A stretch of DNA of 64,000 nucleotides from a virus (lineage: Duplodnaviria > Caudoviricetes): positions 756-64,755 of IMG/VR virus record IMGVR_UViG_3300043811_000176; one strand, 5' to 3'. The position numbers were made by a program, and so were the translations under genes. Below are positions 30,455 to 60,127 of the stretch, in pieces (within the stretch, counting starts at the first letter, position 1; each line of letters starts with the position of its first letter). The notes beneath the pieces are model-generated. The model made no database searches and had not been told where the DNA came from. It saw only the letters and a list, made by a program, of their open reading frames with translations.

Positions 30455-32710
30455 TCAACCTCTATACGACACCGGCTTGTCGTCCATCATGACGGACACG
30501 ATGGCCATGTCGGCGCAGTTCGTGCGCAGCGTGAAGCCGGTCAAGATGCCCTGCTGCCCGATCGCCAGCGGAGGGATCACATAATGCCCTGTCGCAGCCG
30601 GCCCCGCAATCGTGTACTGAGCCGAGTTGTAGGAAATCGTGCCGGAGCCGGGATCAGTGTAGACGGCATCGGCGAACAGCGTGATCGACGGCTGTGAGAT
30701 CGAATAGTAATCCAGCGTGCCCCAGAAGCGCCCAGGCGCCTTGGTCAGCATGTAGCCGCCGGGATCGCCCCAGAGCTTCGACTGAATCTGCTTGGTAAAG
30801 TTGGATGGTGTGTTGAACAGCGGCGCCACGATCGTTCCATCAGTGCCGTAAGCCGTGAAGACGGAATTGATTTCCAGACTGTCGATGAAAACTATACTCA
30901 TCGTCTGCGGCGACGAGAACCAGTGTTTGCCGTCCCACATCGTCGGCTGCGTAACGGTCGCATTCGTGATCGGATTTACGAAGGTGGACAGCATCATCCA
31001 CACCTCGCGATTGAATATGGTCTGATGCGCCGCGGATACAGCAAGCCCGCTCATAGGCGCATTCCAGATGCCGTCGAGCATGCCGCTGACCTTGATCGGC
31101 TGAGCGCCCGATATGATGTAGGTGCCTATCGAGTTCGAGAACAGGATGTCCTGCCCATGCAGGATCACGCTCCACGGGAAAGGCGTTCCGATCGTCGGCG
31201 CCGCGTTCTGCTTGGTGAAGGTCGTGACCGGAGGCGTGCCGGCAGTCTGCACGCCCGAAATGTAATCGATCGAGGAATCCGCGATCAGGTAGAGGAAGCC
31301 ATTGGACTGGATCAGGCGCGTGTACCCGATCTTGAGATAGGAATCGGCCGATTGCGCCGAGCCGCCTCCGTCGCTTGTTGCGAAATCGTTGACGGAACCA
31401 GGAGCTGACCACGAATAATTGTTCTGACTTGCAACCCACACATGACCGGAATAGGTCTCGACCGCGTTGCCGCTGACGCCGTATGGCATGAGGGTGACGG
31501 TGCCCGCGGCCGTGGAGGCTGTATCGGTTATGACGACGGTAGGCGCGACATTGGCAGTCATCTGCCCGCCGGAAACGATGCTGACGGAAGTAATCGAAGA
31601 TCCAGCCCCGGAAACGCTGGCAGTCAACACGGGCGACGACGTGATGGTGTTCGCAGAAGACGAGACGGTAAAAGTCAAAACAGGAAAATTGCTGTAATTC
31701 TGGCCTCCGGCTACGATCGTGTCGCTGCTTATGAAATAATAACCTGTATCTGTAATACTGGCAGTAGGGACAACAGAGTTTTGATACCCACCGCCCGTAT
31801 AGGTTATGCTGGTAAGCGCTCCAGCCGATTCATAGGCTTTTATCTTCAAACCCGCGCTGGGAAATGGATCGCCGCCCGTGACATTCACTTTGACATTCGG
31901 TCCATAACCGGAACCATCTGCCGTCAGCGTAGGATAGGCAGTGTAACCGCTGTTGGGGTTGCCGACCAGGGTTATGACGATCGCGCCCCCTGATCCGCCG
32001 GCATGATGAGACAATCCCACGGTTATGGTCGCCAATGATCCAGACTGATTGCCGCCCGAGAAAGTCAAGGTAGGAGTATCGCCGACCAAATACCCGGTGC
32101 CGGGATTGGAAATTTGAACCGATACGACCGAACCGTTGTTTATGGACGACGTGAACACAGCGCCGGAGCCGCCGCCGCCTACAAGACCGATAATGGGTTG
32201 CGACACATACCCCGAACCGTTGTGAGTTAGAGTAACTATAGGCCCTATAGTACCGGCGGCGTATGTGATCAAGCCGTCCCACAACCAATAGCCGTTCGTC
32301 TGGTTGGCGACAATGATGGCATATTGCTGCCCCCACTGGGACAAACCGATCTGCAATTGGTTTACGGTCGATATCGATCCGGCCGGTAGAATCGCTATGA
32401 CCGCTGCGGTGTTGACATTGACCGCGACAACCGACCCGTCCGACTGGAACAGGATCATGTAAGGAACGGTCGAGATATTAACGAAGCCGAAAAAGACGAT
32501 CGTGATCCCGCCCGGAGCCGTGTAGAGCGTCGCGCCCACATCGTAAAGAGTACGGCAATTGTTCTTGTCGAGCGGCATGAAGCCGTCGAACCAATAGACT
32601 TGGTTGTCGGGAACGCCTGCGCGCGTGGTCGAGGTATTGCAGCCCTCGAACTGATCCATGATGAGCGGACCAGGAGGGGCGGGGATGTAGGGGTTTTGTT
32701 GGATGGGCAT
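30455..32710 (-). CDS. tail nozzle/stabilisation protein (P22 gp10-like position) with inserted beta repeats
   Basis: Follows adaptors; central 'GSGY..P.I..GGGSGA' repeats; 'WSAPGSVNDF'. Confidence 0.65.
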   Translation of the reverse strand: MPIQQNPYIPAPPGPLIMDQFEGCNTSTTRAGVPDNQVYWFDGFMPLDKNNCRTLYDVGATLYTAPGGITIVFFGFVNISTVPYMILFQSDGSVVAVNVNTAAVIAILPAGSISTVNQLQIGLSQWGQQYAIIVANQTNGYWLWDGLITYAAGTIGPIVTLTHNGSGYVSQPIIGLVGGGGSGAVFTSSINNGSVVSVQISNPGTGYLVGDTPTLTFSGGNQSGSLATITVGLSHHAGGSGGAIVITLVGNPNSGYTAYPTLTADGSGYGPNVKVNVTGGDPFPSAGLKIKAYESAGALTSITYTGGGYQNSVVPTASITDTGYYFISSDTIVAGGQNYSNFPVLTFTVSSSANTITSSPVLTASVSGAGSSITSVSIVSGGQMTANVAPTVVITDTASTAAGTVTLMPYGVSGNAVETYSGHVWVASQNNYSWSAPGSVNDFATSDGGGSAQSADSYLKIGYTRLIQSNGFLYLIADSSIDYISGVQTAGTPPVTTFTKQNAAPTIGTPFPWSVILHGQDILFSNSIGTYIISGAQPIKVSGMLDGIWNAPMSGLAVSAAHQTIFNREVWMMLSTFVNPITNATVTQPTMWDGKHWFSSPQTMSIVFIDSLEINSVFTAYGTDGTIVAPLFNTPSNFTKQIQSKLWGDPGGYMLTKAPGRFWGTLDYYSISQPSITLFADAVYTDPGSGTISYNSAQYTIAGPAATGHYVIPPLAIGQQGILTGFTLRTNCADMAIVSVMMDDKPVSYRG

Positions 32711-33657
32711 CAAGCCCCGCCAGAGTAGCGGCCGTAAGGATTTGTCCTCCTGGATACACGTGCCGCATTGCTATATCCCAAACAACGGCGATTAAACTGG
32801 TCTTCATAAAAGCGTGCAGCGTTCAGATTCTGTAAAGACATATAGCATAAAGAAGCCGCCCAGTACGCAACCGCATCAGTCCACGGGTCTGGGATCACCT
32901 CCACACTTAAATCAGTAATCAAATCCTGCGGTAGGCAAAAACAATCCCATTCCATTTGATAGGCTTGGCTGGGAATAGGGTACATATAAAAAGAACCGTT
33001 GCTACCCTGACCATACTGGGCGCAAACGGCCGGCACATACTGCCATTGCTGAGCCCATATACGAATTAGCGCCTGATAAGTGCTGAAATCGTAGCAGAGC
33101 AGACTGTAGCGAAAACCGCTATACAGAAGACTTACTGACTGAATCGCATAAATCGACTGCACTCCAGGGAACGGGCTTAAATTCACCTGTGAAAAAGGAT
33201 AGACCTCCTGACCTTGGCTTACTTGGTTGACGTAGGACAGAGTGGGCGTGATCGACGCTCCCGTTCCCGTCGCATCCGTAATCGAGAACGCAGGCTGCCA
33301 ATAGCCCGCACCACCATAGCCCACATTGACGCCCGTGATCGAACCTCCAGAGACAACCGCCGTAATCGTGCCGCCTTGGCTTCCATTCGGGAATGGCGCT
33401 GTGCCAGAAGGAAAATCCGGAGCCGTGAGCGTGATCGTCGGCGACGACGAATATCCCGAACCGCCTGCAACAACCGATCCTCCTATGACTGCCCCGGTAA
33501 TGGGCGTGAGCACGCGCACACATTGCGTCCGGATCGCAATTTCCCGGCGCGCCCGGTTGATGTACTTGATGATGTCCTCGGGATCGAGCAAGTCCTGCTT
33601 GACGTCCCGGAGGAAGGCTTGCGTGTCCTGCATATACCCGTTTAGCGACATGGGCAC
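32710..33657 (-). CDS. head-tail adaptor, paralog 2 (with inserted GGSGY module)
   Basis: 'YINRARREIAIRTQC'..'IPDPWTDAVAYWAA'; GTG after GGAGG. Confidence 0.7.
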   Translation of the reverse strand: MPMSLNGYMQDTQAFLRDVKQDLLDPEDIIKYINRARREIAIRTQCVRVLTPITGAVIGGSVVAGGSGYSSSPTITLTAPDFPSGTAPFPNGSQGGTITAVVSGGSITGVNVGYGGAGYWQPAFSITDATGTGASITPTLSYVNQVSQGQEVYPFSQVNLSPFPGVQSIYAIQSVSLLYSGFRYSLLCYDFSTYQALIRIWAQQWQYVPAVCAQYGQGSNGSFYMYPIPSQAYQMEWDCFCLPQDLITDLSVEVIPDPWTDAVAYWAASLCYMSLQNLNAARFYEDQFNRRCLGYSNAARVSRRTNPYGRYSGGA

Positions 33658-33668
33658 GGGACGCCTCC

Positions 33669-33697
33669 CTTGCCAAACGTAGTGCATTTCACTACAA
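33669..33697 (+). promoter_or_regulatory. promoter with overlapping palindromic operator upstream of HNH gene
   Basis: CTTGCC-N17-CTACAA; CGTAGT-N7-ACTACA at 33678-33696. Confidence 0.55.
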
Positions 33698-33704
33698 AGA
33701 GAGG

Positions 33705-34244
33705 ATGACAAAAAGCAGAGTACACAGACGTACCATAAGCGACGGACTGACGCGAAAATTTCTCAATGAAATTCTGCGCTATGATCCATCGACAGGAACG
33801 CTTTACAATCGATATCGCCCAGAAAAAAGCAGTTACTGGAACAAACGATTCTCCAACAAAAAAACGGGAGGCTTGCACTCCTACGGAGGCATCGGAGTGT
33901 GGGTCGATGGAGTCCTGTATCAAGCTCACTGCCTCATATGGATCATGATGACAGGCGAACATCCATCGCCGGAAATAGATCACATCGATGGTGATCGCGC
34001 GAACAATAGATGGAAAAACCTGCGAATAGTTATGCACGCAGAAAACATGAAAAACCAAAAACCAAGAAACGGAAGCCCGCATAAAGGGGCAAAGTGGAAC
34101 AAGCGTATGGGTCGCTGGCAAGCAGCCATAACGGTAAATTACAAACGTCTGCATCTCGGTACCTTTGACACCGCAGAAGAAGCTCATGGCGTATATTGCA
34201 AAGCTGCCAAGAAGCTTCACGGTAAATTTGCACGCCTGGAATAG
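33705..34244 (+). CDS. HNH-AP2 homing endonuclease
   Basis: 'LRYDPSTG', 'IDHIDGDRANNRWKNLR', 'HLGTFDTAEEAH'; inserted antisense between the adaptor genes. Confidence 0.92.
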   Translation: MTKSRVHRRTISDGLTRKFLNEILRYDPSTGTLYNRYRPEKSSYWNKRFSNKKTGGLHSYGGIGVWVDGVLYQAHCLIWIMMTGEHPSPEIDHIDGDRANNRWKNLRIVMHAENMKNQKPRNGSPHKGAKWNKRMGRWQAAITVNYKRLHLGTFDTAEEAHGVYCKAAKKLHGKFARLE

Positions 34245-34246
34245 GC

Positions 34247-35026
34247 TCACTGCCCGGCTCCAGTATTTTGTTGAATTGATAATTTGTTGATGGTCGTCGG
34301 ATCAGACTGCCGCTCATATAGATATCGATTGACGCTGGGCGCCGAAGCCTGATTAGCCCTATCAACAAACATCTTGTAGAGATCAAACATCTTCTGCGCA
34401 TCCTCGATCCGCGCCGAGGACTGAGCCGACATCAACGCCAGGTAAGCCGCATAGTACGGCACCGCATCCGTGAACAGATAGGGGATCGCCTCGACGTCGG
34501 TGTCCAGCGCCAAGGCGTTCGGGTAGCAGGAACAATCGATCAGGAGCGAATAGACGAGATCGGGCGGCGGATCGAGATAAAAGCTGCCAGAGTTCATCGA
34601 CCCCGAGCCTATCCCGGTGATCGAGCCTTGCCCCGACCCGCCTTGAGCAAATTGCGACCAGCGCTGCGGCGGCCCCGCCACAGGCACCGGGTTGTTCATG
34701 TAGTAGAGCCAGAAATAGGCCCAGGCGCGCGGCCGGAACCACTGATAGCCCGACGCGACCGCGTAAAGCATCTGCCGGACGTTGATGACCCCAGCGAGGC
34801 CCGTCGTAGCGCTCACACCGATATTGATCGACGAGAAGTTGTAGTTGCGCTGGGCGAGCACGGTCGAGAGCGTGCCCAGATAACGGCAACACTCTGTTTC
34901 GGCAGACAACTGCCCGCGCGCCTGATTAATCCAAGCGGTGATGTCGGGGGTCGCGTAGAGCTGGTTCGCTGCCGCGGCGGGGTACTGCAAGAGCTGTTGG
35001 GTGCGCGTCTGGTAGGTCGTGAGCAA
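34247..35026 (-). CDS. head-tail adaptor, paralog 1
   Basis: 'WINQARGQLSAETEC'..'IPYLFTDAVPYYAA'; TTG after AGGAGG. Confidence 0.7.
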   Translation of the reverse strand: MLTTYQTRTQQLLQYPAAAANQLYATPDITAWINQARGQLSAETECCRYLGTLSTVLAQRNYNFSSINIGVSATTGLAGVINVRQMLYAVASGYQWFRPRAWAYFWLYYMNNPVPVAGPPQRWSQFAQGGSGQGSITGIGSGSMNSGSFYLDPPPDLVYSLLIDCSCYPNALALDTDVEAIPYLFTDAVPYYAAYLALMSAQSSARIEDAQKMFDLYKMFVDRANQASAPSVNRYLYERQSDPTTINKLSIQQNTGAGQ

Positions 35027-35050
35027 GGCTCGCCTCCTTGCCCCTATATA

Positions 35051-35302
35051 TCACACAGGCAGCAGGAAAATCAGCCCTTTTGCAGGATTGCTGCGCTCTG
35101 CATCGATCGTCGCTTTACGCACAACCCCACCGATCTGAAAGTTGATCTGCTCGTTCCGCGACATCCGCTGCCCCTGCATTCCGGGGGTGATGTTGGTGTC
35201 GTCGATTTGCGCCGAAGCCATCAAAGCGTCGTTTGCCGAGAACCCGCAGTTGCTGCTGCCGATACCGGCGACGAACGTGATGCTGAAAGTCGGTCCTGCC
35301 AT
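35051..35302 (-). CDS. hypothetical protein
   Basis: Tightly packed in head operon. Confidence 0.6.
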   Translation of the reverse strand: MAGPTFSITFVAGIGSSNCGFSANDALMASAQIDDTNITPGMQGQRMSRNEQINFQIGGVVRKATIDAERSNPAKGLIFLLPV

Positions 35303-35303
35303 G

Positions 35304-36566
35304 CTACGTCTTCAAGGGCTGCATGACCACGAAGTCAGGACGCGATCCCATCGTCAAGGTGATCGTGCTGGTGCCGATAACCGACCCCGTCCCAGCCAGC
35401 AATATCCCAGCGCCCGCTGCCATGACCGGGGTCGGGACGCCGTAGAACAGGCCGCCGTCATAAATGATCCCGGTTTGCGCCGCGACCGTGCCAGTGGCGC
35501 CAACCGCAAGCACGGCTTGCAGCGGCCGGGGCCGTGCAAACAGGCCGTAGTTCGCACTGCCGGCGCTCACCGCGCCGCTGACGAGATAAACCGGGGCGTT
35601 GGTGATTGTGCCGGTGATCGGCGTCGCCGGCCCTGCGGCCTGCGGATAGCCGCCAACGCTGGTCAGAAGCGCCGACACGGTGCCGCTCGTAAGCGTCGAA
35701 CCGCCGATCACACTGGTGTTGACGACCGTCTGGCACATAATCGCAGAAATCGTGCCTTGTGTGCCAGCGCCGGAGAGAGTGAGCGTGATGTTGTTTGGAG
35801 TCGAGAGCGGAGCGCCAGGATTGGCGCAGAGCACGCCACAGATCGAACCGGATCCGGTCGTCGAGAACGTGATCGTCGCAAGCGTGATGCCGGTCGCGAT
35901 ATTCGGATCGGTCGGATTCGGAAGACAAGTAACGGTGAAGGTCGTGCTGCCCTGATAACCGGCACCCGGATTGGTGAACGTGAAGCCGGAAACCGTGCCC
36001 GAAGCAATCGTGCAGTAACCGGTCGCCTGGATGCCGCCGACACCGTTCGCGTTGTTGGAAGGACCGGGGGGAGAGGGGAGAATGGCGATCGGAGCCACAC
36101 CGTACCCGGCCCCAGCGTTGGCCGTAACGATCGTCGTCGTCGAAACAAGAAGCTGCCCGCCGATGATCGGCGTCCACAACGAGCCGCCGCCGCCGGTCAC
36201 CGCAATCGAAGTCGTCGCCTGCACGTAGCCGCCAGCCCCGTAATTATTCACAAGGCCGCCGACCGGGCATCCAGTCAAGTTGGCGATGCGATAGCTGAAG
36301 CCGTCGCTCTGGAGATAGATCAACCCGCTGTCCCAAGCCGCGGTGGAGACAATCGTCCATGTCCCATTGACGGGATCGAGCATCTGAAGGACGCAGTACG
36401 AGCCGAGCCCGATCAGCCAGTCGCCGCGAGGGATCGGCAACTGATCGCCAGCCGCGAGTCCGACTTGGTTGTTGTTGAAATCGTAGGGCGCGTTAAACAG
36501 CTCGCTAGGATACAAATTTTGAGGTAATTGAAGGCCTACAGAAGGACCTGAAAGCGGGCCAGGCAT
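35304..36566 (-). CDS. Thr/Gly-rich capsid decoration/head-fibre protein
   Basis: Directly after MCP; GAGY repeats; GAGGAG SD. Confidence 0.65.
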   Translation of the reverse strand: MPGPLSGPSVGLQLPQNLYPSELFNAPYDFNNNQVGLAAGDQLPIPRGDWLIGLGSYCVLQMLDPVNGTWTIVSTAAWDSGLIYLQSDGFSYRIANLTGCPVGGLVNNYGAGGYVQATTSIAVTGGGGSLWTPIIGGQLLVSTTTIVTANAGAGYGVAPIAILPSPPGPSNNANGVGGIQATGYCTIASGTVSGFTFTNPGAGYQGSTTFTVTCLPNPTDPNIATGITLATITFSTTGSGSICGVLCANPGAPLSTPNNITLTLSGAGTQGTISAIMCQTVVNTSVIGGSTLTSGTVSALLTSVGGYPQAAGPATPITGTITNAPVYLVSGAVSAGSANYGLFARPRPLQAVLAVGATGTVAAQTGIIYDGGLFYGVPTPVMAAGAGILLAGTGSVIGTSTITLTMGSRPDFVVMQPLKT

Positions 36567-36579
36567 TTATCAGCTCCTC

Positions 36580-37626
36580 TTAGAAGGCGTTTCCGCCAAA
36601 ATTGACTGCAATCGCACCCGAAGACGACTTCGCGCTCACAACGTTGTAGCCAACGACCACGACGCCTTGCTGCCCGATCTGCCCCAAGGGCACGAGCGAG
36701 TAGAACCCGCTGAAATCGAACGCAGCGTCTTCGGATAGATACATCGCCGTGTACTTGACGTTGGGAAAGACGGCCGTTCCCTGCGGAACGAAGTGATCGG
36801 CAAAAATCGGGATGCCCGAAACATTCAGGTTCGGGAACGAAGTGCGTCGGCTGGTGTCGATCGAGTAATTTCCGCCCGGATCCACAAACGCCGTTTCGTT
36901 CGACACAAAGTCCTTGTTCAGGGTCGCGAAGTCGCCAGGGTTGAGAACCCCGTAAGTCGGCGCCTCGCCGCCAGCCGAATCGGTGATATTCGCCAGCATC
37001 GTGGCCATCGTCGCGCGGGTAAAGCCCGAGATCGACACCGACGTATAAGAAGTGTTCGTAGCCGTATTGATGTACTGGCCTTTGAAAGCCGAGTTGCCCG
37101 CTGCGTTGCGCGAGATACCGCCATAGCTTGGAAAATTCGTGCCGCTGTCGAAAGCGTCGAGGAAGCTGTTGGGGAAGAGCGAATTCGACGAGTTGTTGGT
37201 GTAAAGCAGTCGCGCCATGTTCTGGCGCGTCACCGCAAACACATCATTCATGCGCGCCTTGAGCAGGCTGATCTCGCGATCGGTCGCCTGGAGCACGGCT
37301 TCGCCGAAGGGAAGCGGAACGGGGACAACCCAGTAAGCCAGGTTCCACTGTCCGTTCTGCACGCCGGGGGTCACGTTGGGAGAGTTGAACCCGCCGCCGT
37401 AACCGGTGAATTGGCCTTGGACCATCGACTGTCCCTGCATTGGGATAGTGATCTGGTTCAAGCCGCCGGCTGCGCGTTGCGCATTCCCGGTAAGGTAGAA
37501 CAAAGAGGGACTGCCGAAATAAATCTGGACAAAGAGGCGGGGAACGAATGCCCTTCTCGTGGCGGCTGTCAGTTCAGTATAAAGGCTGCCGGCCGGGGGC
37601 GCGACACCGATTCCGGGGAGTGGGAT
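36580..37626 (-). CDS. major capsid protein (348 aa, ATC start)
   Basis: Follows scaffold; 'LNVSGIPIFADHFVP' HK97-like C-terminal motif; AGGAGG at 37637-37632, ATC at 37626, in-frame TAG at 37638-37636. Confidence 0.85.
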   Translation of the reverse strand: MPLPGIGVAPPAGSLYTELTAATRRAFVPRLFVQIYFGSPSLFYLTGNAQRAAGGLNQITIPMQGQSMVQGQFTGYGGGFNSPNVTPGVQNGQWNLAYWVVPVPLPFGEAVLQATDREISLLKARMNDVFAVTRQNMARLLYTNNSSNSLFPNSFLDAFDSGTNFPSYGGISRNAAGNSAFKGQYINTATNTSYTSVSISGFTRATMATMLANITDSAGGEAPTYGVLNPGDFATLNKDFVSNETAFVDPGGNYSIDTSRRTSFPNLNVSGIPIFADHFVPQGTAVFPNVKYTAMYLSEDAAFDFSGFYSLVPLGQIGQQGVVVVGYNVVSAKSSSGAIAVNFGGNAF

Positions 37627-37696
37627 GGCAGCCTCCTATTTAATTAACTGGTTGTGGGCGGACGATCGCCACCCTCCGATGCCCGGAAGTGGCATG

Positions 37697-38487: not shown

Positions 38488-39048
38488 TTACATCGGGGTC
38501 GGCGGCTTTTGCGACGCGGGCGGGGCAGGCGGCGTTTCAGTCTTCGGGTAAAACGGTTTATCGACTGCTGCCTTGTCGGCTGCTGCCTTGTCGGCTGCTG
38601 CCTTGTCGGCTGCTGCCTTGTCGGCTGCTGCCTTGTCGGCTGCTGCCTTGTCGGCTGCTGCCTTGTCGGCTGCCGCCGAAACCGGCTCGATCGGCTTCGG
38701 AACCTTGTAAGGAGCCGCTCCAACCGCGCCCTCGCAAGCGCGGACTCGCCCTTCCAGTTCGACCAACTTCTCGGCATGCTCGTGCGGCAACTTGGTCGCA
38801 TCGTTGACCGACCGGCGAAACTCGACGCCGTCAGTCGTCAGCGCCGCAACATTACCCTCGACAGTCGTGAGCCGGTCGGCATTAATTCGCGCCTGCGAAA
38901 GCGCCTTGAGATGCGAATACTCCGCATGACTCATTCGATTGCGAAGATCTTCAAGCCCGGCAGCCAGGACGCGCGAATCCAGCTCGTGCACATCAACGCC
39001 AGGATCTTTCAATTTCGCAATCAAGGTATCGAGATCGGTGACGGGCAT
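38488..39048 (-). CDS. coiled-coil protein with ADKAA repeats
   Basis: GAGGAG SD; 186 aa. Confidence 0.7.
   Translation of the reverse strand: MPVTDLDTLIAKLKDPGVDVHELDSRVLAAGLEDLRNRMSHAEYSHLKALSQARINADRLTTVEGNVAALTTDGVEFRRSVNDATKLPHEHAEKLVELEGRVRACEGAVGAAPYKVPKPIEPVSAAADKAAADKAAADKAAADKAAADKAAADKAAADKAAVDKPFYPKTETPPAPPASQKPPTPM
38566..38670. repeat. perfect 15-bp tandem repeat x7
   Basis: (TGCTGCCTTGTCGGC)7, encodes ADKAA on the - strand. Confidence 0.95.
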
Positions 39049-39273: not shown

Positions 39274-39656
39274 GCAGCCATTCCCGGCATCTGCGGCTGG
39301 CCCTGCTGCCCTTGAGGTTTCATGAGCTGCTGATTGGTCTGCGACGCCTGCATGTTCTTCATAGCCATCTGATCGATCGCATTGCGCTCGGACGCCTGCG
39401 TGTTCGACCCCGCCGGAACGTGCTTCAGTCCCATTTCAATCATTTTGTTGATGGTCTTGCCGAGGTCGGTCGCGCCGGCCATCGGCAAGAGATCCATCAG
39501 GTTTTTGATCACCAGCCCCAGGCGCTGCATCGCAGCCGCTTCATACCCCTTGTTGGGAGTCGGACCCGTCGCCGAGCTTACTCCCATCGGAGGGGATTGC
39601 GTCTGCTGCGGTCGGGGAAGCCCCGAGCCTGCAGGCATGGGCATGGCGTCAGGCAT
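39270..39656 (-). CDS. Met/Pro/Gln-rich head-module protein
   Basis: 128 aa, near the start of the head operon. Confidence 0.65.
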   Translation of the reverse strand: MPDAMPMPAGSGLPRPQQTQSPPMGVSSATGPTPNKGYEAAAMQRLGLVIKNLMDLLPMAGATDLGKTINKMIEMGLKHVPAGSNTQASERNAIDQMAMKNMQASQTNQQLMKPQGQQGQPQMPGMAA

Positions 39657-39657
39657 G

Positions 39658-39696
39658 TTACCGGCGGCCCTTGCGCCCCTTGCGTCGATTACGCAT
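39658..39696 (-). CDS. 12-aa Arg/Lys micropeptide MRNRRKGRKGRR
   Basis: CAGGAG SD, ATG at 39696, TAA 1 nt before next ATG. Confidence 0.55.
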   Translation of the reverse strand: MRNRRKGRKGRR

Positions 39697-39827
39697 CGGA
39701 AGTCTCCTGGTTAGGGGGTTGGTCCAAAACACGCGAATTATCCGACACTTGGCGAGAGTGGCCCACGTGGTTTGATAAGACCGAGGCGGGTTGCAACAGA
39801 TCAAAAAAGCGGCTAGGTTGCGACAAC

Positions 39828-40043
39828 ATGGTCGACGGAACGGCAACGCGCTGGCTCACGCCCAAGCAAATCTGCGCCGACATGGGCGTGCATTACGACG
39901 CCTTCAGGCGCATCCTGCGCCGCGGCGACGGCCCTAAATTCAAGCGCTATGGAGCGCGCTACCTGATCCGGAAGGACTGGTACGAAGAGTGGATCGAGAC
40001 GAATGATGTTAGACCGCAAAACACTAGAGCAGCAGCTGGCTGA
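39828..40043 (+). CDS. excisionase/AlpA-like HTH DNA-binding protein
   Basis: 'WLTPKQICADMGVHYDAFRRILRRGDGPKFKRYGARYLI'. Confidence 0.75.
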   Translation: MVDGTATRWLTPKQICADMGVHYDAFRRILRRGDGPKFKRYGARYLIRKDWYEEWIETNDVRPQNTRAAAG

Positions 40044-40236
40044 ATACGTTAAATTGACGCCAGCACCTGCCCCGGCACCGCCAGTTATCGTAAGTCCAAT
40101 GACGCGCGCCGAAGCAATCGAATGGATCAAGAGTATAGCGGCTGCGTTCAAGTCGGAATTTTGTTGCACCGACAAGCATCACCAAGAAGTAAACTTGGAA
40201 CTAGTCGAAGTTCTCAAATGGATCAAAGAGGAATAA
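40003..40236 (+). CDS. hypothetical protein
   Basis: In + strand cassette. Confidence 0.5.
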   Translation: MMLDRKTLEQQLAEYVKLTPAPAPAPPVIVSPMTRAEAIEWIKSIAAAFKSEFCCTDKHHQEVNLELVEVLKWIKEE

Positions 40237-40239
40237 AAG

Positions 40240-40638
40240 ATGTTCAGCCTGACAATCGTTTTCGGACCCGGCCCGATGGTGTGGACGTTGATGTTCAAGA
40301 CAGAAGAAAAACTAAAATTCGCCCTTGAAGAACTCGCCTTTCGATCTACAGACGGGCACGCTGGCCACAAAGAAGCATTTTGCGTTACGGACGATTTCGG
40401 ACAGAATTGCGCGATCCGAGATGCTCAAGTTCACGGCTTCATGTCCGAAAATCTCGACGAATCCAAGCATGCCCACATCGAGCGCGCACTTCACCAAGCC
40501 CGCACCAAGATCACCGCCGACAAGCTGGCCGAAGTCGATCCCGTCATCAAGGAAGCCGCTCGGCGCCAGCAAGGCGGGATGCCGATGATCCAGCCGATGC
40601 ACGCAATGCCGGGGCCGAACGGACGCTTTCCATCGTGA
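40240..40638 (+). CDS. hypothetical protein
   Basis: GAGG SD, 132 aa. Confidence 0.65.
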   Translation: MFSLTIVFGPGPMVWTLMFKTEEKLKFALEELAFRSTDGHAGHKEAFCVTDDFGQNCAIRDAQVHGFMSENLDESKHAHIERALHQARTKITADKLAEVDPVIKEAARRQQGGMPMIQPMHAMPGPNGRFPS

Positions 40639-40997
40639 ACCGGCGCGAATTCATTAAGGGAGCGCTTGCCGCGTGGGCAGCGCTCCCGATTGCCAAGATC
40701 ACGCCCTCTATCGCGATGATAAGTCCCAACTATCTGGTCGAGCTGACAGCAATAACCCGAAAGGCATTTTTGCCGAGGCTATCGCAATACTGCACGCACA
40801 CCATCCTTTACCACACAGAAGACGTGCCGCTGGAATTCAACGGATTCCAAATGCTTCTACCGACCTCCACATCCGACATCAACGGCGCCCGCCTCCCAAC
40901 TGCTTCGCCAGAACCTTCTCGGCCGCCTCCGGATTCTCCGACATCAGCTGCCGAATCATCGCCTGCTTCTCCTTCGCCGCTTCGCGGTTCTGATTGA
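40635..40997 (+). CDS. twin-arginine-leader protein containing two MCP-like segments
   Basis: GTGA coupling; 'MNRREFIKGALAAW', 'ELTAITRKAFLPRL', 'TILYHTEDVPLEFNGFQMLLP'. Confidence 0.7.
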   Translation: MNRREFIKGALAAWAALPIAKITPSIAMISPNYLVELTAITRKAFLPRLSQYCTHTILYHTEDVPLEFNGFQMLLPTSTSDINGARLPTASPEPSRPPPDSPTSAAESSPASPSPLRGSD

Positions 40998-42624
40998 GCG
41001 CATCCTGCACATTCGGAAACGGCATGTTATTGAGAACGTACTCAGCTTGCACCAAACCTTTGGAATGCGCCGCCATGATCAATTGCGCGTTCTCGTCCGA
41101 GAAGATCGGCGATGAAGAATGCGAATCCACGGTGACACGCCAATCCTCGGGCATGTCGGTCAGCTTGAATTCCGTCTCGCGTACATCCTGAATCGTATCG
41201 GCCTTGGTCCAGTAGACCGAATCGTCTTTGGCTTCTTTGATTTCCAACGCGAGATCGCCCGCAACTGCGCAATTGCGCTCGGCGATCAATGCGCGATCGC
41301 GCAGCGTCGGCGACCCTGTCTTCATGAGAGTTCCGGCATGCGCTCCCGCTCGCACCCCCTGCTCGCCTTGTCCCTGCATGATCGGCGGAAAGCCCGCGTT
41401 GATATCCATCTGCTCGATCACGAACTTGATTACCGGCAACAATTCCGGCGGGAAACTAGGCGTCATGTCCTCGATCTTGGAATTAGAATCGAGGTTGCCG
41501 AACCCGGCCATTCGCATCTGGCCGTACAGTTCATCGGTGATACGATTCTCGCCGACAAAGAAAAGGATCTTGTCGACCTGGACCCCGATCAAACGGCGCA
41601 TGTCGTCCAGCAAACCAGCCAGGAGCGACTGCGGCTCAGCCATGTTGACGAGTTCAGACTTGCCCCAGAACCATCCAGAAGTCTCGTTGACCTGTATCGA
41701 CCGATACGGTTGGCAATGCGACATAAGCCCAAGAAGATTGGAATGCTTGAGCACCTTCCCGCCCATGGCGGGAGGCGAAATCAAAATATCCGGCTCGATC
41801 AACTGAATCGTGACGTAATCATCCTGCCCCTGCACCCACAACTCGTGCATAGTCACCGTCTCGGCAGCGACTTGCGGCCCCATGATCTGGAACGAACCCC
41901 CGCTCGACACGTTAACCATCCCTCCCGGAAGCGTCCCCGAGAATCCGTTGGGATTATTAGTCTGGAGCTGACTGGTCGAAAGCACCTGGTGAAAGAACGA
42001 CTGGTTCGCATCCTGCGTCTGCCCCGGTGCAGCGTGCGCGCGGATGCGCTCGAACAGCTTGACGGCGTTATCCTGATGCCAAATGCGGCGCCAAACTTCA
42101 GGAAGCGTCAACGATGTCGTCTCGCAGAGCGCTTCCTGGAGCGAAATGTCGGACTCGGATTCCTTGTAGACTCCAAAATTCCACGGCATGACCAACTTGG
42201 CGTATTGCTTGGAAACTTCACCTTTGCCCTCGGATTGCGCCCACTGCTTGAGTCCGCACCAGCCGTATTTGAGGGCCTCGAACACGCCGCGACCAAAGAG
42301 GATATCGGTCGACGATCGGTCCCACTGACGTGTCAACTGCAAAGCAGCGACACGAGCCTGATCCAAGTTCTTCTTGGGATACATCCGATCGAAATCGACC
42401 GAGAATTTGAGTTCGACCGGCGAGAAAATGTGCGCCGCCGCGCGCGCTAAGTGCGGATCGATCTTGTTGATCAATGCCTTCTGACCGTCATAACGACCAG
42501 TTTCGGCGATCTGGTTGAGGCTCATATAATAAGCCGAACGCGATGCTGCCGACACCCGGCACTGCTCCACCATCTGCCGAGCGAAGGTGCGAAGCGCGTT
42601 GAGTTCGGTCGGGACTTCGATCAT
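40879..42624 (-). CDS. portal protein
   Basis: 581 aa between terminase and scaffold/MCP; 'WFWGKSEL', 'MQGQGEQGVRAG'. Confidence 0.8.
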   Translation of the reverse strand: MIEVPTELNALRTFARQMVEQCRVSAASRSAYYMSLNQIAETGRYDGQKALINKIDPHLARAAAHIFSPVELKFSVDFDRMYPKKNLDQARVAALQLTRQWDRSSTDILFGRGVFEALKYGWCGLKQWAQSEGKGEVSKQYAKLVMPWNFGVYKESESDISLQEALCETTSLTLPEVWRRIWHQDNAVKLFERIRAHAAPGQTQDANQSFFHQVLSTSQLQTNNPNGFSGTLPGGMVNVSSGGSFQIMGPQVAAETVTMHELWVQGQDDYVTIQLIEPDILISPPAMGGKVLKHSNLLGLMSHCQPYRSIQVNETSGWFWGKSELVNMAEPQSLLAGLLDDMRRLIGVQVDKILFFVGENRITDELYGQMRMAGFGNLDSNSKIEDMTPSFPPELLPVIKFVIEQMDINAGFPPIMQGQGEQGVRAGAHAGTLMKTGSPTLRDRALIAERNCAVAGDLALEIKEAKDDSVYWTKADTIQDVRETEFKLTDMPEDWRVTVDSHSSSPIFSDENAQLIMAAHSKGLVQAEYVLNNMPFPNVQDALNQNREAAKEKQAMIRQLMSENPEAAEKVLAKQLGGGRR

Positions 42625-42625
42625 T

Positions 42626-43225
42626 TTATACTCGGGGCCTGTAATTCGCGGCAAACATCTCATTCGCCGGTCGACTGACGGTCGCGTCAGGCCCCATGCG
42701 CTCACCGTGCGCCTGATTGAGCGTGCGTTGCATCTTGGCGCCCACATTAGGCATAATTGAGCCTTTAACCCCCTCTGCAATGTGCCCGCTCGCTACGCCG
42801 GCTCCAAAATGCAGCCCCGCTTCGCCTCCACCTGCACCAAAACCGAACATGGAATTGGGATTCACCGCGGCGATGGCATCCATCTGCCGGGTCACGTCGT
42901 TATCGACCGGTATCGCGGCAATGTCCCCCTGCTTCATATTGTCGCGGAGGTTGGTGATTTTCAAGCCCGACATCTCGGACGGCGAGCAGCCCGCCTGCTC
43001 GGCGGCAGCATACATCCGGTCTTCGGACGACTTTTCCATCGCCCTGTAGACGCCGTCGCTACAACGTGTTGAAAAGCTTAGAATATTCGGTACGACGACA
43101 TCGGCGTCATCGCGATCGTGGCCAACATAGGCGCCGCACTCGGGGCAATCCCTGGGGTAGGGCTCCGAGACCGCGAGCCAGCGAAACTTGGTCTTGCACA
43201 TAGGGCAGCGGATGACGACGGCCAT
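42626..43225 (-). CDS. Zn-ribbon-containing hypothetical protein
   Basis: CPMC..CPEC. Confidence 0.65.
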   Translation of the reverse strand: MAVVIRCPMCKTKFRWLAVSEPYPRDCPECGAYVGHDRDDADVVVPNILSFSTRCSDGVYRAMEKSSEDRMYAAAEQAGCSPSEMSGLKITNLRDNMKQGDIAAIPVDNDVTRQMDAIAAVNPNSMFGFGAGGGEAGLHFGAGVASGHIAEGVKGSIMPNVGAKMQRTLNQAHGERMGPDATVSRPANEMFAANYRPRV

Positions 43226-43453: not shown

Positions 43454-43687
43454 TTACAGGCCGCCGAAGCCAGTAAATTGACCCTGCACCATCAGTGAGT
43501 TTACCACAACTTTATCCATATGAGTCTGGCGTGGAGACCCGTTCCACAGTTCTTCCCGAGTTTGCACCAAAGTGCCGACTTTAGCACCGCCAATTTCTTG
43601 CGACACCCATGGCGGATTCTTAACAACCTCTTGCACCGCTACCGGCACCGCAGTAAGCCAACCGAACAACGTTCTACGATTCAACAC
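43454..43687 (-). CDS. twin-arginine-leader protein ending in an MCP-like segment
   Basis: 'MLNRRTLFGWLTAVPVAV'..'MVQGQFTGFGGL'; GGAGG SD. Confidence 0.7.
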   Translation of the reverse strand: MLNRRTLFGWLTAVPVAVQEVVKNPPWVSQEIGGAKVGTLVQTREELWNGSPRQTHMDKVVVNSLMVQGQFTGFGGL

Positions 43688-43688
43688 C

Positions 43689-45620
43689 TCAATACCTCCG
43701 ACCTTGTCCGTAACGCCATGCTTGCCGATTCATCGCCACGGCCTCCTGCCGGCGCGCAGCGCCCTTGGCCGCGAAGAAATTGTCAAGGTTATTCTGATTG
43801 AAAAGCGCCACCTGGTCAAGAATCGACAGACGCTGTCGGGCTTCCTCCGCGGCGCGCGTGCGGCGCTGCCCGACGAGCCCTTGCCGGATCTTGGTCGCCC
43901 AGTAGTAATTGGCGAGCGCCATCGCCACCGCGCGATCGTCACGAAGCGAGGTCGGAGCGCCAATCGAATCTCCATCGCGCGAGATCGATCGCAATTCCTC
44001 GATCAGGTCGAGCGAGCGGATACGAAGCTTGCCGGCCGAGGCGATATCCCGGAGCTGCTCCATGATCGTGATCTTCAAACGCGTATTCGTGAGCCAGTGA
44101 TAATTGTATCCGGCGCCCATCGAATCCGGACGCGTGTATATGTAAGTCCGTACATTCCTGAAAATGTTTGCGAGTCCCTGCTCCTCTACGGATTTGCGAG
44201 CGCTCGGCGAGTTCTCGATATAGAACTTCAAAGCTTTGATCTCGTTGAAGACGGCGGTTCCAGGACCGTTGAGTTCGAGGATGTATCGGCACTCGGCCCG
44301 AGGACTGGCGCCGTACCAACCCATGAGTGCGGCCAAGGTCCATGCGAGGTGTCTTGTAGTTTGAAGGGGCCAGGCGTACTCGGCGACTTGATCAACTCCA
44401 TCGGCATAACATCGGAGCACCTCGATAGCCGAGTTGCAGTTATTCTCGTTTTCTCCGTAGGCGGGATCGAGTGCAAAGACATATACTCCCTCCGAATTAG
44501 GCTCCTCCCACACCTTCAACTCCGTCGAAGGGAGGTTGTTGGCGCGATAAACCTTCATGTCGACGAATTCCTCGCCGGCCACGAAAAGATAAGGCTGGAA
44601 CTTCTTGTTGACGTACTTGTTGGTGATGTCGGTCAGGTTGTTGGAAGCGAAGAAAACCGAGCCGGTTTGCTGGAAGCTCTCTTCCTCCGTCCAGGGCTGC
44701 TCCTGAATTCGCAGCGCATTACCTTCAAAATTAAAATCGCTGCCCTCCTGATCCGCCTGCCCGAGGCTGGGATTCATCTTGCGGCGATACCAGGCAAGCT
44801 GCTCGATATCGACATCAACGTCGTACCGTTCCTTCACCTCCTTGATCTTGGCTGCTTCCTTGGCGGTCGGAGGATCCTTGGCGTAAAGATGATAATCGAT
44901 ATCGGCAGGCGTGATGCGCTGCGTACCCTTGCTCCACCAACCGAGGAAAATGCACTTACAGTGCATGGGATCGCTGCGCGCATCCTTCCAAAGCGTCCAC
45001 CAGCGATTAAAACCGCGTGCCGTCGATTCGTAGATGTAAAGCCGGTCAGGGTTGATGTCGGAGAGCGAGTTCTCGAAGGCTTCGAGACCTTCGTCGTTAT
45101 CCCAGGAACAAAGCTCGGACAAGTGCGCCACGGACAGACCGACCGATCGCCCGAGCGTTCCCGACGTCTTGGACTTCTTGACGCCGGCCGACATGAACAG
45201 AACCTTGGAATCGTTGGCAAGCGCCAAGCCGGTGCGGTTGTTCGAAGTGATGGCAGGAAAGCGAAGCGCGGGCGGAAGGTCGTTGATCATTACCTCCAGC
45301 TCGGCGCGGGACTCGGACTTATTCGAATCCGTGTCGAAGACGATCGCACCCTTTAGCCCCTTGTGCACGCCAAGGAAAAATATGATCAGAGCGCGGATGA
45401 TCGTCGAGATGCCGAGCTGACGGGACTTGAGAATATAAATCTTGTGAATGCCGGCTTCGAGAGCGTCAAAAATCTGGGTGATGACATCGATCTGTCCCTG
45501 GTACAGGTTGTCGCCAAGGCAAATCTGCCCCGCGTCCTTCGAATTAACGAAGCAGCTGCGAAGGTAAATGTAGAACGCAGTCTCGACGCGGTCTCGTTTA
45601 AGTGCTGACCAGCCTGCCAT
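43689..45620 (-). CDS. terL: terminase large subunit
   Basis: Walker A 'LKSRQLGIST', Walker B 'HLSEL', 'ESTARG', nuclease 'ALDPAYG'..'DDRAVA'. Confidence 0.92.
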   Translation of the reverse strand: MAGWSALKRDRVETAFYIYLRSCFVNSKDAGQICLGDNLYQGQIDVITQIFDALEAGIHKIYILKSRQLGISTIIRALIIFFLGVHKGLKGAIVFDTDSNKSESRAELEVMINDLPPALRFPAITSNNRTGLALANDSKVLFMSAGVKKSKTSGTLGRSVGLSVAHLSELCSWDNDEGLEAFENSLSDINPDRLYIYESTARGFNRWWTLWKDARSDPMHCKCIFLGWWSKGTQRITPADIDYHLYAKDPPTAKEAAKIKEVKERYDVDVDIEQLAWYRRKMNPSLGQADQEGSDFNFEGNALRIQEQPWTEEESFQQTGSVFFASNNLTDITNKYVNKKFQPYLFVAGEEFVDMKVYRANNLPSTELKVWEEPNSEGVYVFALDPAYGENENNCNSAIEVLRCYADGVDQVAEYAWPLQTTRHLAWTLAALMGWYGASPRAECRYILELNGPGTAVFNEIKALKFYIENSPSARKSVEEQGLANIFRNVRTYIYTRPDSMGAGYNYHWLTNTRLKITIMEQLRDIASAGKLRIRSLDLIEELRSISRDGDSIGAPTSLRDDRAVAMALANYYWATKIRQGLVGQRRTRAAEEARQRLSILDQVALFNQNNLDNFFAAKGAARRQEAVAMNRQAWRYGQGRRY

Positions 45621-58000: not shown

Positions 58001-58043
58001 TTCCCTTACTCCCCATTGCGACGGGACCGCCCCGCGCCATGAC

Positions 58044-58097
58044 AACAGTTAAACCACTAAAAATTTCGTGCGTCAAGCCCCTTGCTAACAGTTAAAC
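58044..58097. promoter_or_regulatory. divergent promoter region with 11-bp direct repeat
   Basis: AACAGTTAAAC at 58044-58054 and 58087-58097; CTTGAC (-) and CTTGCT (+) -35 boxes back to back. Confidence 0.55.
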
Positions 58098-60124: not shown

Positions 60125-60127
60125 CGC

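What the first reader, a model, noticed from the sequence alone, without database searches (positions are those of the whole stretch)
40635..40997. Twin-arginine mini-protein stitched from two distant segments of the major capsid protein
Seen: leader MNRREFIKGALAAWAALP, then ELTAITRKAFLPRL versus MCP 18-31 ELTAATRRAFVPRL (11/14 identical; 8 of those 11 codons differ synonymously), then after 5 residues TILYHTEDVPLEFNGFQMLLP versus MCP ~293-313 TAMYLSEDAAFDFSGFYSLVP (9/21). About 260 intervening MCP residues are absent. This is protein-level, not recent DNA-level, similarity. Inference: a capsid-epitope mimic, acting as decoy for capsid-sensing immunity, dominant-negative inhibitor of related phages, or membrane tether for procapsid assembly. 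Capture from a diverged relative's MCP would also explain the synonymous differences.
Basis: partly seen in the sequence, partly recalled or inferred. Interest (0 to 1): 0.85.

Follow-up and report, generated by a model that had tools for sequence, protein, structure and literature searches.

The report
Exported mini-protein copying capsid contact segments
A small phage gene joins a bacterial export signal to two short copies of the phage's own capsid protein; it belongs to an undescribed family of such genes that probably mimic capsid contact sites, though their role is untested.

Summary
ORF 40635-40997 (+) starts with a twin-arginine-type leader. It then matches the major capsid protein (MCP, 36580-37626, -) twice, in the same order as in MCP: mini 24-49 to MCP 4-31, and mini 53-76 to MCP 290-313. 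None of 3000 shuffles reached the observed score.

It is not a one-off. A profile search found 35 unnamed small proteins built as a Tat-like leader plus an MCP N-terminal module. A profile made only from such proteins matches the MCP family (hhalign probability 98.2%) and found the MCP N-terminus in 26 of 27 related phage records.

By analogy with solved HK97-fold capsids, the copied pieces (N-arm, P-domain hairpin) are contact elements between subunits and with the scaffold.

Only codons 1-81 are the gene proper. Other soil strains carry a native tail and stop after codon 81. In the window these are deleted, so the frame runs 39 codons antisense into the portal gene.

The gene is accessory and fast-evolving: it is absent from the closest relatives, and shows 11 non-synonymous to 2 synonymous changes against 3 to 8 in its flanks.

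Best reading, with function inferred: an exported mimic of capsid contact sites. The design has no described counterpart.

The parts
40635..40703 (+). Twin-arginine-type leader, residues 1-23 (MNRREFIKGALAAWAALPIAKIT). The GTG start overlaps the stop of ORF132 (GTGA).
   Evidence: Sequence. PF10518 TAT_signal scores 16.8 bits against a cut-off of 22.7. TIGR01409 scores 13.9 against 16.7. The same MNRREFIK start occurs on two cellular enzymes of 403 and 445 aa in metagenome contigs.
40704..40781 (+). N-arm-like module, residues 24-49, matching MCP 4-31. The core is ELTAITRKAFLPRL at 40740-40781.
   Evidence: BLASTP 11 of 14, E 6e-5. Gapped alignment 50% over 28 columns. Family module TR[KR]AF[IVL]PRL. 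hhalign of the mini family against the MCP family gives probability 98.2%.
40782..40790 (+). Three-residue joint (SQY) where about 258 MCP residues are missing.
40791..40862 (+). P-domain-like module, residues 53-76 (CTHTILYHTEDVPLEFNGFQMLLP), matching MCP 290-313.
   Evidence: BLASTP 9 of 24, E 1e-4. The same module is kept in P0001, P0122, P0125 and P0132.
40863..40877 (+). Residues 77-81 (TSTSD), the last residues shared with homologues P0122 and P0001.
40878..40997 (+). Read-through tail, residues 82-120 plus stop. It is antisense to the portal gene's 3' end and is not part of the ancestral gene.
   Evidence: The portal stop lies at 40879-40881. GC by codon position is 0.67/0.79/0.41, unlike the pattern of the genes compared. 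Other strains carry FMQDQLVLP... after 40876; X5 has about 193 nt more there and X2 has 15 nt.
36580..37626 (-). Major capsid protein gene, 348 aa, with an ATC start 5 nt after AGGAGG.
   Evidence: HK97 fold by Foldseek. NF033394 E 4e-14. 157 related viral loci and 1252 protein clusters.
37534..37617 (-). MCP residues 4-31 (N-arm), the source-like segment 1.
   Evidence: E18, L19, R24, R25, A26, V28 and L31 are invariant in 34 MCPs. Model pLDDT is below 50 over 1-37.
36688..36759 (-). MCP residues 290-313 (strand 293-298 and the following loop, read as the P-domain hairpin), the source-like segment 2.
   Evidence: Y292, Y296, S298-A301 and D304-V312 are invariant. Secondary structure and pLDDT.
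40240..40638 (+). ORF132, the upstream gene of the same + strand operon, coupled to the mini. It is conserved in relatives that lack the mini.
   Evidence: 4 synonymous and 0 non-synonymous differences against strain X2.
39837..40043 (+). Excisionase-family HTH gene, the first gene of the + strand operon.
   Evidence: TIGR01764 E 1.9e-5, 24.9 bits against a cut-off of 28.8.
40879..42780 (-). Large ORF read as the portal gene, from its place and size only (no family match). It is convergent with the mini and overlapped by the mini's tail for 119 nt.
43454..43687 (-). Second RR-leader mini-protein of the genome. Its C-terminal MVQGQFTGFGG matches MCP 68-78 (the E-loop region of the model).
   Evidence: 10 of 11 identical. 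Homologues in L003 and L013 lack this fragment.

Best explanation
Codons 1-81 of ORF 40635-40997 are a real, accessory, fast-evolving phage gene. It belongs to a so far unnamed family of small proteins of uncultured soil podophages. The family design is a Tat-type (twin-arginine) signal peptide followed by one or more short modules copied from the phage's HK97-fold major capsid protein.

The common form carries MCP residues 1 to about 45 (the N-arm). This gene carries the N-arm as far as residue 31, then a P-domain hairpin piece (MCP 290-313).

Shown: the architecture, its homology to MCP, the family, its patchy distribution, and the deletion that created the antisense tail.

Inferred mechanism: the modules keep the residues that MCP uses to dock to the scaffolding protein and to lie under a neighbouring subunit's E-loop. 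The peptide would therefore bind what those MCP segments bind. In that way it would cap or compete at capsid-lattice or scaffold contact sites, most plausibly those of co-infecting relatives, whose N-arm is nearly invariant. The leader would take the peptide to the Tat translocon and the periplasm. That would localise it or clear it from the cytoplasm before the phage's own late genes are on.

Inferred origin: recombination that captured the 5' end of an MCP gene behind a signal-peptide cassette that these phages also use on large exported proteins.

Confidence split: real gene of such a family about 0.85; truly exported about 0.55; contact-site mimic as its mode of action about 0.35.
For: (1) The two same-order MCP matches are beyond chance.

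(2) GC by codon position in codons 1-81 is 0.52/0.44/0.65, the same pattern as in MCP, portal and terL. The other two frames of the region and the tail do not show it. The start is coupled to ORF132 by a GTGA overlap.

(3) Homologues keep the design: P0001 (93 aa, 84% identical), P0122, P0125 (105 aa) and P0126, and P0132 (87 aa).

(4) A profile search found 35 small proteins of 51-159 aa (31 newly fetched ones are 77-159 aa), none given a functional name. Of the 34 analysed, 33 have RR, 25 have an AAPAIV-like motif, 22 have [LIV]M[PLR][VI] after it, and 29 have TR[KR] in the N-arm module.

(5) In the 31-sequence alignment the MCP-like module is among the few conserved parts, while the linkers cannot be aligned.

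(6) hhalign of the mini family against the MCP family gives probability 98.2%, E 4e-14, over MCP 13-49. The mini-only profile hit the MCP N-terminus in 26 of 27 phage records.

(7) Some alignments reach MCP residue 1 (MPIRGI and MPVKQI against MPLPGI). Cleavage after the (I/V)x(H/R/K)A site, present in 15 of 34, would therefore free a peptide starting 2-3 residues before an MCP-like N-terminus.

(8) All 9 family proteins scanned (8 homologues and the mini) gave sub-threshold TAT_signal matches of 14.4-19.1 bits. The same leader type sits on 288-, 398- and 595-aa proteins of these phages.

(9) In SPP1, the N-terminal helix binds the scaffold in the procapsid. The N-arm later runs under the neighbour's E-loop, which covers the N-arm and the P domain (passages). 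The two MCP-like minis of this genome together carry N-arm, P-domain and E-loop pieces.

(10) A recombination scar that duplicates the first 7 MCP codons lies just upstream of the MCP start. It shows how 5' MCP stubs arise.
Against: No binding, export or expression was shown.

All Tat HMM scores are below the curated cut-offs. This leader lacks the family's AAPAIV..LMPV motif and has no clear AxA cleavage site.

Against three near-identical soil strains, codons 1-81 show 11 non-synonymous and 2 synonymous changed codons. The flanks show 3 and 8 (Fisher p 0.011). pN/pS is 0.77 against X2 and 2.3 against X5, while ORF132 and the portal end give 0 against X2. This fits neutral decay as well as diversifying selection.

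The closest allele (P0001, X5) has lost 3 residues of the N-arm module. It has also changed the family's nearly invariant Ala (A44E).

The window allele has lost its native tail and stop.

The gene is absent from all 80 related loci, and its slot is empty or holds an unrelated ORF in the closest relatives. Nothing essential depends on it.

An exported peptide cannot meet cytoplasmic capsid partners after export, so the mechanism needs action before or during targeting.

The module is hydrophobic, and exposed hydrophobic stretches abort Tat transport (passage).

No covariation between minis and their own MCP could be seen in 6 pairs, because the MCP N-arm hardly varies.
Confidence: 0.4

Rival explanations
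1. It is an exported envelope-acting peptide whose likeness to MCP is only ancestry. The gene arose from an MCP 5' stub fused to a signal peptide. It now acts in the periplasm or membrane, for example in superinfection exclusion or lysis timing, as other small signal-bearing phage proteins do. It has no capsid partner.
For: The leader is Tat-like with an n-h-c layout. The protein is small. Its position is accessory and moron-like, and family members sit in different slots in different genomes. It evolves fast. T4 RI is a small periplasmic phage protein with a cleavable signal (abstract start in the listing). Small unfolded Tat substrates can be transported (passage).
Against: This does not explain why the MCP-like module, with the same residues that are invariant in MCP (T, R, A, F, P, L), is among the best conserved parts across 31 very diverse family members. 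It also does not explain why other minis carry other MCP pieces such as the E-loop and the P-domain.
Confidence: 0.2
2. It is a decaying relic. A once functional leader-plus-N-arm mini gene, or simply a recombination scar, is drifting neutrally in this lineage and has no present function.
For: pN/pS is about 1 and the substitution density is about the flanks' synonymous rate. The N-arm module is eroded in the sister allele, with a 9-nt deletion and A44E. The native tail and stop are deleted in the window and partly in X2. The gene is absent from close relatives. A clear non-functional MCP stub exists upstream of the MCP start.
Against: The frame is open in all four strains, and all indels seen are in frame: 9 nt, and 15 nt in X2. 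The coding GC pattern is kept. Distant homologues at 33-39% identity (P0125, P0132) still have leader, both modules and similar length, which a neutral relic would not keep.
Confidence: 0.2
3. It is a counter-defence decoy or evictor. The peptide shows conserved capsid motifs to a host factor that senses the capsid protein. It either titrates that factor or drags it to or through the Tat translocon as a hitchhiker, before MCP is made.
For: MCP is a known trigger of bacterial immunity (CapRel, abstract start in the listing; Avs7 and Dsr1, passages). Tat can carry bound partners that have no signal of their own (PaoABC, abstract start in the listing). The gene sits in a + strand operon antisense to the late operon, which suggests earlier expression (inferred). 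It is accessory, variable and fast-evolving.
Against: No sensor is known for this phage group, and the host is unknown. Characterised MCP sensors read extended folded surfaces, not 14-30-residue peptides. A decoy that binds a sensor might switch it on. No neighbouring gene supports the idea.
Confidence: 0.1
4. It is a structural helper of head assembly. In this reading it is a membrane tether, or a surrogate for the missing penton contacts at the portal vertex.
For: The gene lies next to the portal gene. The second mini lies next to terL, and another family member lies just upstream of terL. The modules are lattice contact elements.
Against: It is absent from all 80 related loci, including phages with 92-93% identical MCP. 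It lies on the opposite strand to the structural genes. It evolves fast. With the positive N-terminus inside, the payload would face the periplasm.
Confidence: 0.05

Closest known systems
Tat (twin-arginine) signal peptides and Tat hitchhiker export (PF10518, TIGR01409; PaoABC)
   Same: An N-terminal RR-x-F-(I/L)-K motif, a short moderately hydrophobic h-region, a helix-breaking Pro and, in 15 of 34 family members, a small-x-small site. The same leader type is found on large proteins of these phages.
   Different: HMM scores are below the curated cut-offs. The cargo is a 55-60-residue viral peptide with no fold of its own (AF2 pLDDT 52), not a cofactor enzyme. Export is untested.
SaPIbov5 Ccm, a capsid-protein homologue used by a satellite to redirect helper capsid assembly (PMC8569155; abstract start seen in the listing)
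   Same: A mobile-element gene derived from a capsid protein that acts, or here is proposed to act, through capsid-lattice contacts.
   Different: Ccm is described there as a homolog of the phi12 capsid protein and acts in the cytoplasm. This protein keeps about 50 residues in two pieces, has a signal peptide, and is encoded by the phage itself.
T4 Gol peptide of the capsid protein gp23, trigger of the Lit protease (recalled; only search listings seen)
   Same: A short internal piece of a major capsid protein that has biological activity on its own.
   Different: Gol is part of the full-length MCP, not a separate gene. It has no leader and is a target of defence rather than a phage tool.
T4 antiholin RI (PMC8385771; abstract start seen in the listing)
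   Same: A small phage-encoded protein with a cleavable N-terminal signal that acts in the periplasm.
   Different: RI binds the holin and has no likeness to capsid protein. Its export is not described as Tat-dependent in what I saw.
HK97-fold major capsid proteins (NF033394 capsid_maj_Podo; PF20911 GP7)
   Same: Clear sequence homology to two MCP segments. Relatives P0132, P0140, P0149 and P0125 give weak GP7 matches (E 3.9e-6 to 0.089).
   Different: It has no A domain, spine helix or E-loop, so it cannot form the fold.

Membership tests
Tat signal peptide (PF10518 / TIGR01409) | Twin-arginine consensus (S/T)-R-R-x-F-L-K near the N-terminus (consensus recalled) | tested here: met
   N-R-R-E-F-I-K at residues 2-8.
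Tat signal peptide (PF10518 / TIGR01409) | Score at or above the curated HMM cut-off | tested here: not met
   PF10518 16.8 bits against 22.7. TIGR01409 13.9 against 16.7. All 9 family proteins scanned (8 homologues and the mini) are also below cut-off, at 14.4-19.1 bits.
Tat signal peptide (PF10518 / TIGR01409) | Hydrophobic h-region followed by a c-region with a small-x-small cleavage site | tested here: inconclusive
   The h-region GALAAWAALPIA has a best 11-residue Kyte-Doolittle mean of 1.85. Only S-I-A at residues 26-28 could serve as a site. 15 of 34 relatives have (I/V)x(H/R/K)A.
Tat signal peptide (PF10518 / TIGR01409) | Tat-dependent export | not testable with these tools
   Needs a reporter fusion in tat+ and tat- hosts.
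Leader-plus-MCP-N-arm mini-proteins (family defined here, alignment A3) | RR leader at the N-terminus of a protein under about 160 aa | tested here: met
Leader-plus-MCP-N-arm mini-proteins (family defined here, alignment A3) | AAPAIV-like motif and [LIV]M[PLR][VI] motif after the h-region | tested here: not met
   The window has AALPIAKITPS. The motifs are present in 25 and 22 of 34 relatives.
Leader-plus-MCP-N-arm mini-proteins (family defined here, alignment A3) | Module [ED]L.A[IV]TR[KR]AF[IVL]PRL homologous to MCP 16-31 | tested here: met
   ELTAITRKAFLPRL. hhalign family against MCP, probability 98.2%.
Leader-plus-MCP-N-arm mini-proteins (family defined here, alignment A3) | Module continues as [YF]VQ[LI]Y...P.L (MCP 32-45) and then ends the protein | tested here: not met
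   After PRL the window protein switches to the MCP 290-313-like piece. P0001, P0125 and P0132 share this variant.
HK97-fold major capsid protein | Complete fold with N-arm, E-loop, spine helix, P and A domains | tested here: not met
   About 258 MCP residues are missing between the two matches. The AF2 model of the mini shows helices only, pLDDT 52.
Capsid-redirecting capsid homologues (Ccm type) | Full-length capsid-protein homologue that co-assembles into shells | tested here: not met
   Only two short segments are homologous.

The most novel reading that the evidence does not exclude
These phages run a peptide-mimic system. Interchangeable Tat leaders carry short copies of the most conserved contact motifs of virion proteins: the capsid N-arm, E-loop and P-domain, and a tail-protein repeat. 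Before or during export, each peptide would seize a cytoplasmic protein that recognises that motif, such as a rival phage's scaffold or capsid subunit, or a host capsid sensor. It would then hold that protein at, or drag it through, the Tat translocon as a hitchhiker. That would be inter-phage warfare or counter-defence by eviction. A variant reading: the N-arm/P-domain mini (40635) and the E-loop mini (43454) re-create the capsid's subunit contact with each other outside the capsid.
Probability: 0.1. Interest if true: 0.9.

Novelty: categorically new. Interest (0 to 1): 0.72.

Why it matters
If these peptides work as they look, they are a new class of phage accessory gene: short, exported copies of capsid contact motifs. 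That would give a natural set of peptide inhibitors or probes of HK97-fold capsid assembly. It would also be a first use of the host Tat pathway by phage mini-proteins, and a new player in phage-phage or phage-host conflict in soil.

There is value even without the function. The family shows how recombination at the 5' end of a capsid gene creates new genes. It also labels dozens of 'hypothetical' small ORFs. The claim is directly testable with simple expression, export and co-assembly assays.

Tried and rejected
Complex prediction of two MCP copies with mini 24-81 gave 'no answer', so it is not used either way.

AF2 of the mini alone had pLDDT 51.9, with helices at 3-21 and 31-58. It was too weak to say whether the two modules pack together.

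The AF2 MCP model has pLDDT below 50 in exactly the segments of interest (1-37, 65-89, 300-321), and no coordinates are available to me. The adjacency of the two segments therefore rests on analogy with SPP1, not on this protein.

Expression: no RNA holder was listed for 39700-41000. This says nothing about expression.

The promoter and terminator scan of 39300-41300 found 0 promoter-like and 3 terminator-like sites, no more than in shuffles.

Pfam, PHROGs and NCBIfam gave no family for the mini apart from sub-threshold Tat matches. A TIGR04309 hit at E 0.0038 on the Pro/Ser-rich tail is noise.

Searches for the mini itself found nothing in IMG/VR.

P0125 and P0132 in IMG/VR gave leader-only matches. 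PF20911 was searched in 5 records with no match anywhere, controls included, so that search is uninformative. I therefore could not test whether minis with GP7-like pieces sit in phages that have a GP7-type MCP.

The genome-contig scan with A4 gave 4 loci, all in MAGs. Three are alphaproteobacterial by title and one is Saccharibacteria. This is only a weak host hint.

The GenBank phage collection has only 2 uncultured records with a 34-35% identical MCP.

I first read the payload of the G014 mini as a terminase fragment. Direct comparison favours MCP 299-317 (E 4.9e-5) over terL (E 0.004), and the other MCP-like pieces there are weak.

Covariation of mini and cognate MCP: 6 pairs were looked at with no signal and no power.

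Literature: three searches found no paper describing signal-peptide-plus-capsid-fragment proteins. Only those terms were searched, so absence from print is not proven. No supplementary files were consulted. The supplementary tables of the Avs preprint might list small triggers or decoys.

An earlier-findings search by sequence found nothing.
Full report
**What the window is.** The window is nearly a whole IMG/VR virus record of 64,755 bp, rated 100% complete. Large ORFs on the - strand run in this order: terL (43689-45620; PHROG 675, E 4e-5), a 200-aa zinc-ribbon-like protein, and a 633-aa protein read as portal from its place only (40879-42780). Further on come genes of 128, 186 and 200 aa, the last scaffold-like by place only, and then the capsid gene. 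A short + strand operon breaks this row between the portal gene and the 128-aa gene. It holds an excisionase-family HTH (39837-40043), ORF77, ORF132 and the ORF in question.

**Observation.** The ORF starts at GTG 40635, inside a GTGA that also holds the ORF132 stop. BLASTP against the 348-aa capsid protein gives two matches in the same order as in MCP. Residues 36-49 match MCP 18-31 at 11 of 14 (E 6e-5), and residues 53-76 match MCP 290-313 at 9 of 24 (E 1e-4). With one gap, the first match extends to MCP 4-31. None of 3000 shuffles reached the observed single score (56) or pair score (110; shuffled mean 44.5, sd 4.8, max 67). Among all 1397 stop-to-stop frames of the window, the three best matches to MCP outside its own gene lie in this ORF (two) and in the other small RR-leader ORF, 43454-43687.

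**The partner is a capsid protein.** Pfam and PHROGs give no match. The AF2 model (pLDDT 63.7, pTM 0.65) matches HK97-fold shell proteins, mostly phage capsids, with Foldseek probability 1.00 (7f38, SU10, HK97). NCBIfam capsid_maj_Podo gives E 4e-14, below its cut-off. The family is large: 157 viral loci and 1252 protein clusters, none with a functional name among the 120 listed. The gene appears to start at ATC after AGGAGG. The matched segments are among the most conserved of the protein.

**Only codons 1-81 are the gene.** GC by codon position is 0.52/0.44/0.65 for codons 1-81, the same pattern as MCP, portal and terL. For codons 82-120 it is 0.67/0.79/0.41. The portal stop lies at 40879-40881, exactly where likeness to P0122 and P0001 ends. 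Contigs from other soil metagenomes settle the point. After 40876, X3 reads on with letters that translate to FMQDQLVLP, the tail of P0001 and P0122. X5 has about 193 nt more there. X2 keeps 15 nt of it, and the window keeps none. The window allele has therefore lost its native tail and stop by deletion, and its frame now runs 39 codons antisense into the portal gene.

**A family, not a curiosity.** An exhaustive phmmer search found P0125 (105 aa) and P0126 (85 aa), both with RR leaders. A profile of six such proteins then found 35 proteins of 51-159 aa, none given a functional name. The common design has three parts. First comes the leader, M..RR[GS]F[LF].GL...AAPAIV[RHK]A..LMPV[RK]. Then comes a linker that cannot be aligned. 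Last comes [ED]L.A[IV]TR[KR]AF[IV]PRL[YF]VQ[LI]Y...P.L, which corresponds to MCP 14-45. Of the 34 analysed, 33 have RR, 25 the AAPAIV-like motif, 22 the LMPV-like motif, 23 TRK and 6 TRR.

Several alignments reach MCP residue 1, so the mature part looks like MCP 1 to about 45. hhalign of the 31-member alignment against the MCP alignment gives probability 98.2%, E 4e-14. The mini-only profile hits the MCP N-terminus in 26 of 27 related records. P0125 and P0132 share the window's variant, an N-arm-like piece followed by the P-domain-like piece. P0132, P0140, P0149 and P0125 give weak matches to Pfam GP7, another capsid family (E 3.9e-6 to 0.089).

I compared 47 payloads with the window's proteome. 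Of these, 36 hit MCP at E below 0.05, 2 hit only another ORF of the - strand row (32710-33711; function untested), and 9 hit nothing. This count is partly circular, because 34 of the 47 were found with a profile that contains the N-arm module. Among 9 minis found by leader alone, 2 carry an MCP piece and 2 carry a GxGY repeat like that of the 333-aa protein.

**The leader.** NRREFIK, a 12-residue h-region and a Pro fit a Tat signal, but all HMM scores stay below cut-off. MNRREFIK also begins two cellular enzymes in metagenome contigs. The same leader type heads 288-, 398- and 595-aa proteins of these phages. A Tat review notes that small unfolded substrates can be carried, but that exposed hydrophobic stretches abort transport (passages).

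**What the copied segments do in capsids.** In SPP1, the N-terminal helix binds the scaffolding protein in the procapsid. [quoted passage not shown] Both N-arm and E-loop make inter-capsomer contacts (passages). In the model here, residues 1-37 (N-arm), 65-89 (E-loop tip) and 300-321 are the low-confidence but invariant parts. That is what one expects of contact elements. The two MCP-like minis of this genome carry just these three elements. This is analogy, not a test on this protein.

**Distribution.** The mini is absent from all 80 related loci. Its slot holds an unrelated 68-aa ORF in L003 and nothing in L013. Full leader-plus-N-arm minis occur in 4 of 25 records that are at least 90% complete, plus one fragment record. 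Leader-only matches occur in 7 records. Positions differ between genomes: upstream of terL (L084, L085), downstream of terL (L066 and the window's second mini), and an early-region slot in G001. No tyrosine integrase was found.

**Selection.** Against strains X2, X3 and X5, codons 1-81 show 11 non-synonymous and 2 synonymous changed codons. ORF132 plus the portal end show 3 and 8 (Fisher p 0.011). Against X2, pN/pS is 0.77 for the mini and 0 for both flanks. X5 also has an in-frame 9-nt deletion inside the N-arm module, and A44E. The gene is therefore drifting or diversifying, not strongly constrained, in this lineage. Yet the frame stays open, indels are in frame, and homologues at 33-39% identity keep the design.

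**Origin.** Just upstream of the MCP start lies a 19-codon ORF (37636-37695, -) that begins MPLPGIG. Its codons are those of the MCP start in relative L004, and an in-frame TAG and a fresh AGGAGG follow it. This is a recombination scar that left a 5' MCP stub. The same kind of event behind a signal-peptide cassette would create the family.

**Reading.** I commit to an accessory, exported mimic of capsid contact sites (0.4 overall; the split is given under best explanation). The rivals are an envelope-acting peptide with capsid ancestry only (0.2), a relic (0.2), a counter-defence decoy or evictor (0.1) and an assembly helper (0.05). No family library and none of three literature searches describes such a design.

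Noticed in passing
window 37636-37695 (-): A 19-codon ORF (MPLPGIGGWRSSAHNQLIK) lies between the scaffold stop and the MCP start. It repeats the first 7 MCP codons with the codon choices of relative L004. It is in frame with MCP and separated from it by a TAG and a new AGGAGG. It looks like a recombination scar at the scaffold-MCP module boundary.
   Followed up: partly
window 37624-37626 (-); loci L003-L066 at 10001: MCP start codons differ among 11 relatives looked at: ATG 5, TTG 3, GTG 2, ATC 1 (L025). The window also uses ATC.
   Followed up: partly
window 43454-43687 (-): A second RR-leader mini-protein sits directly after terL. Its C-terminal MVQGQFTGFGG matches MCP 68-78 at 10 of 11. 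Its homologues in L003 and L013 share the leader and middle part but lack this fragment.
   Followed up: partly
window 18392-20179 (-); L123; L124: Large proteins of 595, 398 and 288 aa in this phage group start with the same kind of RR leader, for example MISRRRLLISAAVLTCPFRAAAQ. That is odd if they are virion fibres or spikes.
   Followed up: no
L083 2952-3408 (+); L122 (G014 60058-60165): Two RR-leader minis lie side by side in L083. One carries the MCP N-arm. The other, and a mini in G014, carry a G.GY repeat unit like the repeats of the window's 333-aa protein (32710-33711).
   Followed up: partly
L098 (G014 57959-58081); P0136: These minis seem to hold several MCP-like pieces out of order: in L098, 299-317 and then 264-294; in P0136, 150-171 and then 16-49. 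Each match is weak (E 0.002-0.005), so this is unconfirmed.
   Followed up: partly
window 30455-36566 (-): The 420-, 752- and 333-aa proteins share repeated G.GY-containing units with one another (BLASTP E 1.5e-8 between the 420- and 752-aa proteins).
   Followed up: no
window 38488-39048 (-): The 186-aa protein contains eight tandem AAADK repeats.
   Followed up: no
window 40876-40881: Three structural alleles exist at the junction of the mini and the portal end in soil metagenomes: about 193 nt extra (X5, and X3 by loose end), 15 nt extra (X2), and none (the window).
   Followed up: yes
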